Made by a program: the position numbers and the translations under genes | Assembly: GCF_009914755.1 (NCBI RefSeq) | Contig: NC_060925.1 | Direction: 5' to 3' (one strand) | From: the human T2T-CHM13v2.0 reference genome, Homo sapiens | Length of the DNA: 64,000 nt | In this document: one piece after another, positions 33,593-34,821 of the stretch | How positions within the stretch are numbered: position 1 is the first letter of the stretch | Layout: every line of letters begins with the position of its first letter | Notes under the pieces: generated by a model | Databases searched by the model: none | What the model was told of the DNA's origin: nothing | Seen by the model: only the letters and a program-made list of their open reading frames with translations

Positions 33593-34821
33593 AGAGAATG
33601 TTCTCTTTATTCAAGGGTACAACTTATGGCAAATTAATTGTTGACCAAGTTATCTGCAAGAAGAGGTCCTATGACTCCTGCATTAATAGATACTGAATTT
33701 TCAATCAGCACTATTTTTTTCTATGCCTGAAAATGGAATTGCTCTGGTTTTTTGAGTGACTTTTCACTAGAGGGCCTTCCAGTTACTCCTGTAAGCTGCC
33801 TAACCTGGCACACCACGCCCAAGTGTAACCGTGAATCCAAATGAGTGGGCTGACCTAAGGGAATGCCACCAGGCCTCATCCTGAGCCCAGGCTCACGCTT
33901 TGCCCTCCTGGGAACCTTGGCCTGTGCATCTTTCCTTATCTGTGGAGTCACGTCTTTGGAGCACCTGGGCTTAGGAAGAATGATTAGTGAATCTGTGTAA
34001 GCCAAGCAAAGTTCAAAGACCTGCCCAGTCTTCATTTCCAAACAATCTCGTATCTATGAGACAGTGGCCGGCAGCGTGACTCAGCCTGACCCCAGCCTCA
34101 GTAACAAACTCTGGCAAAGACACGCGGGGAGAGGCTGCAGCGCTTAGAACTTGGAGCCATGGTCACCTGACCCCGGAATGAAACCCGATAAACAAGCATT
34201 TACTGAACACCCACTGGAAGTGCTTACAAGGCACTAAGCTAAGCACCATCAAGAACCTTGATCTCAAAGGCTGCACCACCTCTGTGGCAGGTGACGGAAG
34301 GGAATGCTTTTCCCATGCAACTGCCTAGGAAAGAAATCCCAGAGACATTTAGGGACTGGTTTAAGGTCATGATGACTGTGGCCAAGCGGAGACTAGACTT
34401 CAGATCTCCTGATTTTCTTTTCTTTTTTTTTCTTTGTTTTGTTTTGTTTTGAGATGGAGTCTTGCTCCATCGCCCAGGCTGGAGTTCAGTAGCACAATCT
34501 CGGCTCACTGCAGCTTCTGCCTCCTGGGTTCAAGCGATTTTCCCACCTCAGCCTCCCAAGTAGCTGGGATTACAGGGGCTCAACACCACGCCCAGCTATT
34601 TTTTACATTTTTAGTAGAGATGGGGTTTCACCATGTTGCCCAGGCTGGTCTCGAACTCCTGACCTCAGGTGATTCACCTGCCTCAGCCTCCCAAAGTGCT
34701 GGGATTACACGTGTGAGCCACCACGCCTGGCCAGATCTCCTGATTATTTTCAAGGTCACACGTCTCCCCACCAGGTGCACAAACGCCAAAAGACAGTGTG
34801 GCTTACTAGCATATATTTTAA
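33593..34821. repeat. Direct-repeat copy of SLC2A7 intron 3 5' region (paralogue of 61655-62548), containing an Alu at 34415-34732
   Basis: Core 33696-34417 versus 61762-62478: 13 substitutions plus one 5-bp indel by manual comparison; edges more diverged. Confidence 0.97.
34415..34732 (-). mobile_element. AluSx-type insertion with TSD AGATCTCCTGATT; empty site seen in the paralogous copy
   Basis: TSD at 34402-34414 and 34733-34745; single uninterrupted copy of the site at 62463-62475. Confidence 0.93.

What the first reader, a model, noticed from the sequence alone, without database searches (positions are those of the whole stretch)
33593..34821. Old duplicate of SLC2A7 intron 3 with a recently homogenised 720-bp core (gene conversion signature)
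Seen: 33696-34417 and 61762-62478 differ by only 13 substitutions and one 5-bp indel (~98%). The ~100 bp to the left are only roughly 70-80% similar, and the ~60 bp right of the Alu are ~93%. This copy carries an AluSx-type insertion (TSD AGATCTCCTGATT) that is absent from the intronic copy and ~12% diverged from consensus by my count. Near-identity stops exactly at that insertion. Inference: the duplication predates the Alu and may be as old as the 73%-identical exon-10 fossil, and the core has since been overwritten by non-allelic gene conversion, with the Alu acting as a barrier.
Basis: partly seen in the sequence, partly recalled or inferred. Interest (0 to 1): 0.8.

Follow-up and report, generated by a model that had tools for sequence, protein, structure and literature searches.

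The report
Small old duplicate homogenised by conversion
A 0.9-kb piece of SLC2A7 intron 3 has an old second copy 28 kb away, and its middle was re-copied between the two sites long after an Alu landed in one of them: a clean but ordinary case of non-allelic gene conversion.

Summary
Copy A (33593-34821) and copy B (61656-62548, start of SLC2A7 intron 3) are the only two copies in the T2T genome.

A carries an Alu with a 13-bp target-site duplication; B has the clean empty site. The Alu is 13.3% (9.0% non-CpG) from a consensus of 59 window Alus. Unconverted sequence around it should therefore differ from B by at least about 18%. The near-identical tracts differ at 2 of 627 non-CpG columns.

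Divergence is mosaic:
- about 29-37% at the far left;
- about 8-12% in three short segments;
- 0-1% in two tracts of 88 bp and about 575 bp.

Non-allelic gene conversion after the Alu insertion is the best explanation (about 0.8).

Three refinements:
- The 720-bp core is not uniform.
- The Alu-as-barrier claim is unresolved.
- Equal age with the exon-10 fossil rests on 32-41 bp plus collinearity.

No cross-species test was possible. This is a new member of a known kind, of low to moderate interest.

The parts
33593..33633 (+). Copy A, outermost left edge: the oldest divergence layer.
   Evidence: 12 of 41 columns differ (70.7% identity). The segmentation isolates 33593-33624 with 12 of 32 differing. 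Homology is real: local score 17 against 7.3 +/- 1.2 in shuffles, reached by 0 of 300.
33634..33695 (+). Copy A, inner left edge: intermediate divergence.
   Evidence: 7 of 61 columns differ (88.5%), plus 1-bp and 4-bp indels.
33696..33783 (+). Near-identical tract 1.
   Evidence: 0 of 88 columns differ. 15.8 non-CpG differences are expected if the copies had been separate since the Alu insertion, P=1.3e-7.
33784..33839 (+).
   Evidence: 7 substitutions, all transitions, in 56 columns (87.5%). A cluster this dense among the 13 core differences has scan p=0.0012 over 20000 permutations.
33840..34414 (+). Near-identical tract 2, the main converted tract. It ends at the Alu insertion site.
   Evidence: 6 of 567 columns differ (98.9%), of which 4 are at CpG positions, plus a 5-bp indel at 34277-34281. 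Non-CpG: 2 of 539 observed against 97 expected, P=3.5e-39.
34415..34732 (-). Alu insertion present only in copy A, flanked by the target-site duplication AGATCTCCTGATT (34402-34414 and 34733-34745).
   Evidence: Sequence read directly. Two 7SL/SRP-like halves at 34449-34596 and 34615-34731 on the minus strand. 13.3% from the window Alu consensus overall, 9.0% at non-CpG positions and 37% at CpG positions.
34746..34821 (+). Copy A, right edge beyond the Alu. It is also the 94-nt spacer of a head-to-head inverted Alu pair.
   Evidence: 6 of 76 columns differ (92.1%), plus a 3-bp indel at the target-site duplication. Inverted arms 34669-34733 and 34828-34892 are 89% complementary.
61656..62548 (+). 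Copy B: SLC2A7 intron 3, from 27 bp to about 920 bp downstream of the exon 3 splice donor (the gene is on the minus strand). It holds the empty Alu site.
   Evidence: blastn, global alignment, gene table supplied with the finding.
33291..33588 (-). Alu bounding copy A on the left. Homology to B does not resume beyond it.
   Evidence: 13.1% diverged from the window consensus. No significant match left of it.
34829..35123 (+). Alu bounding copy A on the right, first of three Alus. Homology to B and to exon 3 does not resume beyond them.
29683..29980 (+). Context: unprocessed fossil of SLC2A7 exon 10 with its intron flanks, in the same order and orientation as copy A relative to the live gene.
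   Evidence: Exon columns 55 of 76 identical, flank columns 138 of 203 identical, reading frame broken. blastn E=3.8e-9. Self-blast.

Best explanation
Copy A is a relic of an old, unprocessed, direct-orientation duplicate of the first ~0.9 kb of SLC2A7 intron 3. It lies 28,063 bp downstream of the original. It is neutral DNA with no sign of a function of its own.

An Alu retrotransposed into A after the duplication. After that, A and B exchanged sequence by non-allelic (interlocus) gene conversion: a break in one copy was repaired using the other copy on the same chromosome as template.

At least two layers of exchange are visible. An older one left about 8-12% pairwise divergence (33634-33695, 33784-33839, 34746-34821). 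The latest one or ones left two near-identical tracts, 33696-33783 and 33840-34414.

The latest tract carries about 2-5% of the Alu's own divergence. If the Alu is a typical 30-40-Myr AluS (a recalled figure), the tract dates to the last few million years.

The outermost 32-41 bp escaped conversion and keep the original divergence of about 30-37%. This is the expected picture of a conversion domain eroding from its edges, rather than a single overwrite of a 73%-identical fossil.

Shown: the two-copy status, the mosaic, the Alu's age relative to its flanks, and symmetric CpG decay. Inferred: the mechanism, the number of events, their direction and the absolute dates.
For: 1. **Two copies only.** The search of the whole genome found 2 candidates and scored both. 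This is a locus-specific duplicate, not a repeat family, and no third donor exists.
2. **Alu clock.** The Alu sits inside a target-site duplication made of A/B sequence, so it is younger than the duplication. It has 9.0% non-CpG divergence on one lineage. Sequence unconverted since then should differ from B by about 18% or more. Observed: 2 of 627 non-CpG columns in the two tracts (P=6e-46), 15 of 181 in the three intermediate segments (P=5e-4), and 11 of 39 in the outer left edge, which is compatible.
3. **Significant heterogeneity.** Max chi-square reached by 0 of 1000 permutations; 3 of 1000 after removing the outer 32 columns. Core vs left edge Fisher p=1.4e-10; core vs right edge p=0.0065.
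4. **Different substitution spectrum.** Transitions to transversions are 13:0 in the core and 12:13 in the edges (p=0.0011). Seven of the 13 core differences sit at CpG sites, as expected for very recent divergence.
5. **Neutral, symmetric decay since homogenisation.** The core has 10 shared CpGs, 4 kept only in A and 3 kept only in B.
6. **Known parameters fit.** Passages of Harpak et al. (bioRxiv 10.1101/135152) give a mean tract of 250 bp and a rate of 2.5e-7 per bp per generation, slowing as copies diverge until they 'escape'.
7. **No sign of function in the core.** No Rfam match inside 33593-34417; all 16 matches at E<=0.1 lie on Alus (one, mir-3473 at 34709-34852, bridges two Alu heads across A's right edge) and are below the gathering score. 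No Pfam match for the 110-aa open stretch in either copy.
Against: - **No outgroup.** The defining phylogenetic test (paralogues grouping by species inside the tract and by locus outside it) could not be run.
- **The fine mosaic is only moderately supported.** BIC prefers two segments (12 of 32 columns vs 26 of 857; BIC 295.7). The 3- and 4-segment models score 299.0 and 299.2.
- **The Alu clock has a soft baseline.** It uses a majority consensus of 59 window Alus of mixed subfamilies, which can overstate the Alu's divergence by a few diagnostic positions.
- **The right edge does not fit a strict barrier.** The 76 bp beyond the Alu are less diverged than the clock predicts (5 observed against 13 expected, P=0.011). 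Either the Alu was not a barrier to earlier events, or events on its right side happened in a segment that looks too short for conversion.
- **Little perfect identity remains.** The longest perfect runs today are 146 and 142 bp. That is near the lower limit usually quoted for efficient mammalian homologous recombination (recalled figure), and the edges at 70-88% would hinder tract resolution.
- **No hotspot motif.** The PRDM9-type 13-mer has 0 of its 7 window matches inside A or B.
Confidence: 0.8

Rival explanations
1. The duplication is recent (about 1-3% divergence). Either the Alu was already present and was later excised precisely from B by recombination between its target-site duplicates, or an old, decayed Alu source retrotransposed recently into A.
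For: B's empty site is indistinguishable from a precise excision. BIC favours one rate of 3.0% (26 of 857 columns) for everything except the outer 32 bp.
Against: This does not explain the 12 of 32 differences at the homologous left end, nor the residual heterogeneity (3 of 1000 permutations). Precise Alu loss is rare, and a source that is 9% decayed at non-CpG sites and 37% at CpG sites is unlikely to be retrotransposition-competent (both from established knowledge, not tested here). The 7-substitution patch and the roughly 8-12% segments also would not be expected.
Confidence: 0.06
2. The duplicate is old and both copies of the core are held nearly identical by purifying selection, for example as a duplicated regulatory element. 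No sequence exchange occurred.
For: B lies next to exon 3. The core has 50% GC against 36% in the left edge.
Against: This would need about 98% of 627 non-CpG sites to be constrained in both copies, one of which is stranded between Alus. That is more than most exons achieve: SLC2A7 and SLC2A5 exons are 65-78% identical. CpGs have decayed symmetrically (4 lost in one copy, 3 in the other, of 17) and a 5-bp indel is tolerated. There is no RNA family or protein-domain match. None of the RefSeq functional elements whose coordinates appear in the supplied table overlaps A or B; one further enhancer is mentioned there without coordinates.
Confidence: 0.03
3. Gene conversion is real, but copy A is an independent, younger small duplication (just older than the Alu). 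It is unrelated to the exon-10 fossil, and the very diverged outer 32-41 bp are junction damage or local hypermutation rather than an older layer.
For: Only 1 of the 10 SLC2A7 coding exons in the window has a fossil. Nothing from the 14.6 kb between exon 10 and copy B survives in the 3.8 kb between the fossil and copy A. The old layer rests on 32-41 columns.
Against: The fossil and copy A lie in the same order and orientation as in the live gene. The fossil's intron flanks are 68% identical (138 of 203 columns), the same class as A's outer edge at 62-71%. Even so, the intermediate segments are younger than the Alu clock allows.
Confidence: 0.4
4. The near-identity is an assembly or polishing artefact that made two paralogous stretches look alike.
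For: None found.
Against: The copies are 28 kb apart, each embedded in unique flanks, and still differ at 13 sites and one indel in the core. The pattern of CpG transitions looks biological.
Confidence: 0.01

Closest known systems
Non-allelic gene conversion between human gene duplicates (Harpak et al. 2017, bioRxiv 10.1101/135152; abstract and passages read)
   Same: Intronic sequence of linked paralogous copies. Tracts of a few hundred bp (they estimate a mean of 250 bp). The rate falls as copies diverge, until they 'escape'.
   Different: Their set is intact duplicate genes with orthologues in primates. Here one partner is a sub-kb relic with no exon, and no multi-species data could be used.
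Interlocus gene conversion in human segmental duplications (Vollger et al. 2023, PMC10172114; passages read)
   Same: One paralogous copy is replaced by the other, and events concentrate in high-identity duplicates.
   Different: Their method uses 1-kbp windows inside annotated segmental duplications. Few events were found above 10% divergence (325 in 66.1 Mbp). This pair aligns over only about 0.9 kb, so it lies below that resolution. Their supplementary tables were not opened, so I cannot say it is absent from them.
Fetal globin HBG1/HBG2 conversion with a tract boundary at a simple repeat in intron 2 (recalled from the classical literature; no paper read here)
   Same: Linked direct duplicates with a near-identical block ending abruptly at a sequence discontinuity, next to much more diverged flanks.
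   Different: The globin copies are functional genes about 5 kb apart. Here the partner is a dead fragment 28 kb away, and the candidate boundary is an Alu insertion.
Alu insertion by target-primed reverse transcription
   Same: 13-bp target-site duplication, A-rich tail, dimeric 7SL-derived body.
   Different: Nothing unusual. It serves here only as an internal clock and as a heterology.

Membership tests
Non-allelic (interlocus) gene conversion tract | Two paralogous copies in the same genome, with no other possible donor. | tested here: met
   Exactly 2 places in the 3.1-Gb genome. There is no homologue in the SLC2A5 region: 0 hits for A in 70 kb. The search does not reach copies of about 75% identity over 100 bp.
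Non-allelic (interlocus) gene conversion tract | A segment of significantly lower divergence flanked by more diverged homologous sequence. | tested here: met
   0 of 1000 permutations and 3 of 1000 reached the observed statistic. However, BIC gives only moderate support to more than one breakpoint.
Non-allelic (interlocus) gene conversion tract | An independent marker shows the copies are older than the tract's divergence. | tested here: met
   An Alu with a target-site duplication, present in A only, is 9.0% diverged at non-CpG sites. The tracts differ at 0.3% of non-CpG columns pairwise.
Non-allelic (interlocus) gene conversion tract | Phylogenetic incongruence: paralogues group by species inside the tract and by locus outside it. 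| not testable with these tools
Segmental duplication (usual definition, recalled: at least 1 kb and at least 90% identity) | Aligned length of at least 1 kb. | tested here: not met
   889 ungapped aligned columns at 95.7% identity. Copy A reaches 1229 bp only by counting the Alu.
Interspersed repeat (transposable element) family | Many dispersed copies. | tested here: not met
   2 copies. By contrast, the neighbouring 340-bp element 32677-33016 has 8565 first-look candidates.
Alu SINE insertion (34415-34732) | Target-site duplication, A-rich tail, two 7SL-derived monomers. | tested here: met
   The subfamily (AluSx) was not tested.
Unprocessed (genomic) partial pseudogene of SLC2A7 | Exon fossils with intron flanks, collinear with the parent gene. 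| tested here: inconclusive
   The exon-10 fossil with its flanks and the intron-3 copy are collinear. However, 9 of the 10 coding exons in the window have no fossil.

The most novel reading that the evidence does not exclude
The exon-10 fossil and copy A are the last remnants of one ancient partial tandem duplicate of SLC2A7. Its intron-3 island has stayed in continuous genetic exchange with the live gene for tens of millions of years, well below the size at which duplicates are normally catalogued. The most recent exchange falls in the hominin lineage and may still be polymorphic. If so, the pair would also be a substrate for recurrent 28-kb deletions or duplications removing or doubling SLC2A7 exons 4-12.
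Probability: 0.2. Interest if true: 0.45.

Novelty: new member of a known kind. Interest (0 to 1): 0.25.

Why it matters
- **Concerted evolution below the catalogue threshold.** A sub-kb relic that would not enter segmental-duplication catalogues can still exchange sequence with an active gene's intron. The exchange starts 27 bp from a splice donor.
- **A built-in clock and marker.** The Alu dates the events internally and marks a heterology, so the pair is a small natural experiment on how conversion tracts end and how conversion domains erode.
- **A testable prediction.** Two direct repeats with 146-bp and 142-bp perfect runs, 28 kb apart, predict rare NAHR deletions or duplications of SLC2A7 exons 4-12. 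They also predict paralogous variants that could be mistaken for SNPs.

None of this is surprising to a specialist.

Tried and rejected
- **Repeat family?** Rejected: the unit has 2 genomic places.
- **Inverted 80% match 32677-33016 vs 60734-60418 as part of the duplicate?** Rejected: it is a high-copy repeat, with 8565 candidates and 40 scored at 87-90%.
- **Homology continuing beyond the flanking Alus or into an exon-3 fossil?** None found. The best hit was 28 bp at 75%, E=0.2. Local alignment scores were reached by 25, 31 and 52 of 300 shuffles.
- **Other exon fossils?** Only exon 10 (blastn E=3.8e-9). Exon 9 gave a weak, out-of-order hit at E=0.006.
- **A paralogous sequence in SLC2A5?** None for A. 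The stretch queried for B (61400-62575) gave one 76-bp hit at 67% on the opposite strand, outside the duplicated unit.
- **RNA gene or protein domain in the core?** None.
- **PRDM9-type 13-mer in A or B?** None; the window has 7 matches against 2.95 expected, all elsewhere.
- **Longest identical run as a test?** Weak: 146 bp against a 95th percentile of 140 bp in permutations.
- **Literature.** No paper holds 'SLC2A7' with 'gene conversion', nor 'SLC2A7', 'SLC2A5' and 'tandem duplication'. Of 14 papers with 'SLC2A7', 'copy number' and 'deletion', the 8 listed looked unrelated by title and abstract.

Full report
**What is there.**

Copy A (33593-34821, 1229 bp) and copy B (61656-62548, 893 bp) are direct repeats 28,063 bp apart. 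B is the start of SLC2A7 intron 3 (gene on the minus strand). It begins 27 bp below the exon 3 donor, according to the gene table supplied with the finding. A lies downstream of the gene between Alus.

blastn gives 94.9% identity over 829 columns for the part left of an Alu in A, and 90.0% over 90 columns for the part right of it. With the Alu and one target-site copy removed, the two copies align over 889 ungapped columns with 38 substitutions (95.7%) and four indels of 1, 4, 5 and 3 bp.

A search of the whole 3.1-Gb assembly finds only these two places (2 candidates, both scored). This is therefore not a repeat family, and no third sequence could have donated to both. That search would not find copies at about 75% identity over 100 bp, because it missed the real exon 10 when queried with its fossil.

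| Segment | Reader | Measured |
|---|---|---|
| Core 33696-34414 | 13 substitutions + 5-bp indel, ~98% | 13 of 711 columns differ (98.2%), plus a 5-bp indel |
| Left ~100 bp (33593-33695) | roughly 70-80% | 81.4% on ungapped columns, 2 indels |
| Right of the Alu (34746-34821) | ~93% over ~60 bp | 92.1% over 76 columns |

The target-site duplication AGATCTCCTGATT flanks the Alu at 34402-34414 and 34733-34745. B has it once. The inserted element matches the 7SL/SRP model in two halves on the minus strand.

**The Alu as an internal clock.**

I aligned 59 Alu copies from the window. These were HSPs covering at least 256 of the 315 query bases; shorter and overlapping HSPs were dropped, and the number dropped was not printed. 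I measured each copy against the majority consensus.

The Alu in A is 13.3% diverged overall, 9.0% at non-CpG positions and 37% at CpG positions. The 59 copies range from 4.4% to 18.0% at non-CpG positions, so this is a middle-aged copy.

Its target-site duplication is made of duplicated sequence and B has the clean empty site. The Alu therefore entered A after the duplication. Any A/B sequence untouched since then should differ by at least twice the Alu's single-lineage divergence, about 18% at non-CpG sites.

| Class of segment | Non-CpG columns differing | Comparison with the 18% expectation |
|---|---|---|
| Two near-identical tracts | 2 of 627 (0.3%) | P=6e-46 |
| Three intermediate segments | 15 of 181 (8.3%) | P=5e-4 |
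| Outer left edge | 11 of 39 (28%) | compatible |

Almost the whole unit has therefore been made alike again after the Alu landed. This is the strongest argument for sequence exchange, and it does not depend on where breakpoints are drawn.

Its weak point is the consensus. It mixes subfamilies and can overstate the Alu's divergence by a few positions.

**The mosaic.**

| Segment | Columns differing | Identity |
|---|---|---|
| 33593-33633 | 12 of 41 | 70.7% |
| 33634-33695 | 7 of 61 | 88.5% |
| 33696-33783 | 0 of 88 | 100% |
| 33784-33839 | 7 of 56 | 87.5% |
| 33840-34414 | 6 of 567 | 98.9% |
| 34746-34821 | 6 of 76 | 92.1% |

- Overall heterogeneity is beyond chance: 0 of 1000 permutations reached the observed max chi-square.
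- Much of that signal comes from the outermost left end.
- A penalised-likelihood segmentation prefers just two segments: 33593-33624 with 12 of 32 columns differing, against 26 of 857 for the rest (BIC 295.7). Three and four segments score 299.0 and 299.2.
- After removing the outer 32 columns, the best low-divergence interval is 33842-34752, with 6 of 572 columns differing against 20 of 285 outside. Only 3 of 1000 permutations reached this.

The '720-bp core' is thus better described as two near-identical tracts separated by a patch of the intermediate class. That could be a discontinuous tract or two separate events.

**Substitution spectrum.**

All 13 core differences are transitions, and 7 of them lie at CpG sites. 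The edges have 12 transitions and 13 transversions (Fisher p=0.0011).

In the core, 10 CpGs are shared, 4 survive only in A and 3 only in B. Both copies have therefore decayed at similar rates since they were last identical. That is neutral behaviour, not constraint.

**Where the tract ends on the right.**

The segmentations with four or more segments put the break at 34783/34784, about 38 columns beyond the Alu.

The two halves of the right edge (1 of 38 and 5 of 38 columns differing) are not distinguishable (p=0.20). The whole right edge is also less diverged than the Alu clock predicts (5 observed against 13 expected, P=0.011).

So the Alu may have stopped the latest event. The data do not show that it has been a barrier since it inserted.

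**Age of the duplicate.**

The window holds an unprocessed fossil of SLC2A7 exon 10 at about 29683-29980.
- 55 of 76 exon columns and 138 of 203 flanking intron columns are identical, and the reading frame is broken.
- blastn gives E=3.8e-9.
- It lies in the same orientation as copy A, and on the same side of it as exon 10 lies relative to B.
- Its 68% flank identity is in the same class as A's outer edge (62-71%).

That fits one ancient partial tandem duplicate. But 9 of the 10 coding exons in the window have no fossil. Nothing else from the 14.6 kb between exon 10 and B survives in the 3.8 kb between the fossil and A. The old layer of A is also only 32-41 columns long. I put about 0.4-0.5 on a single old event.

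For scale, SLC2A7 and SLC2A5 exons are 65-78% identical (10 of 10 exons found). Neither A nor B has a counterpart in the SLC2A5 region.

**Mechanism.**

The best-supported reading is non-allelic gene conversion between linked direct repeats, in more than one round.

A single recent overwrite of a 73%-identical fossil is unlikely, because conversion needs good homology. Passages read in Harpak et al. give a mean tract of 250 bp and a rate of 2.5e-7 per bp per generation that falls as copies diverge until they escape.

A domain kept alike by repeated events, with edges that drop out one after another, produces exactly the gradient seen here (about 30% to 10% to 0-1%).

Using the Alu as a yardstick, the main tract has about 2% (non-CpG), 4% (all sites) or 16% (CpG positions, log-corrected) of the Alu's divergence. 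If the Alu is 30-40 Myr old, a recalled figure for AluS that was not tested, the last event is roughly 1-6 Myr old. It could be specific to the human lineage or even polymorphic. These dates are inference from 2-6 substitutions.

**Rivals.**

- **Recent duplication with precise Alu excision from B, or a late insertion of an old-looking Alu.** Both fail on the diverged but clearly homologous left end (score 17 against 7.3 +/- 1.2, reached by 0 of 300 shuffles) and on the residual heterogeneity.
- **Constraint on both copies.** This fails on its sheer strength (0.3% divergence against at least 18% expected), on the symmetric CpG decay, on the tolerated 5-bp indel, and on the absence of any RNA or protein signal.
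- **Assembly artefact.** Implausible for copies 28 kb apart that still differ at 13 sites.

**Comparison with what is known.**

This is an ordinary process. Vollger et al. (passages read) map interlocus conversion across human segmental duplications with 1-kbp windows and find few events above 10% divergence. Harpak et al. study it in introns of duplicate genes.

The present pair is smaller than the usual segmental-duplication threshold (889 aligned columns). One partner is a dead fragment.

My searches found no paper linking SLC2A7 with gene conversion or tandem duplication. Supplementary tables of the large surveys were not opened.

I file it as a new member of a known kind, with interest about 0.25. 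It is a tidy example with a built-in clock, but not a surprise.

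Noticed in passing
window 29683-29980 vs 46916-47195: Unprocessed fossil of SLC2A7 exon 10 with both intron flanks. 55 of 76 exon columns and 138 of 203 flank columns are identical, and the frame is broken by a 2-bp gap. It is the only 1 of the 10 coding exons in the window with a fossil downstream of the gene.
   Followed up: partly
window 32677-33016 and 60418-60734: Two copies, in inverted orientation and 80% alike, of a ~340-bp high-copy repeat (8565 first-look candidates genome-wide; best other copies 87-90%). 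The second copy sits between two Alu-like pieces (60326-60420 and 60733-61001), as if one element had inserted into the other. Family name not determined.
   Followed up: partly
window 34418-34732 (-) and 34829-35123 (+): The Alu inside copy A and the next Alu form a head-to-head inverted pair, with arms 80-89% complementary and a 94-nt spacer that is copy A's right edge. Closely spaced inverted Alus are reported to be break-prone (recalled). If so, they could have started repair from copy B. This is speculation.
   Followed up: no
window 33784-33839: All 7 differences in this 56-bp patch are transitions, in both directions on one strand. The other intermediate segments have 7 transitions and 6 transversions. 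It may be chance, or a patch left by discontinuous mismatch repair.
   Followed up: partly
window 34962-35013, 33404-33455, 34547-34598, 35030-35089: Sub-threshold Rfam matches to mir-1268, mir-3135, mir-1285 and mir-3473, all lying on Alu sequence (one bridges two Alu heads). They are Alu-derived look-alikes, not evidence of miRNA genes.
   Followed up: no
window 35759-36432 and 22059-22404: A low-copy inverted match (64% over 374 columns) next to the Alu cluster right of copy A. By eye it resembles the 3' part of an old LINE-1. Not tested.
   Followed up: no
window, whole: The PRDM9-type 13-mer CCNCCNTNNCCNC occurs 7 times against 2.95 expected from shuffles (1 of 100 shuffles reached 7). 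None is in copy A or B. Two flank SLC2A7 exons 10 and 9 (46944-46956 and 49912-49924).
   Followed up: no
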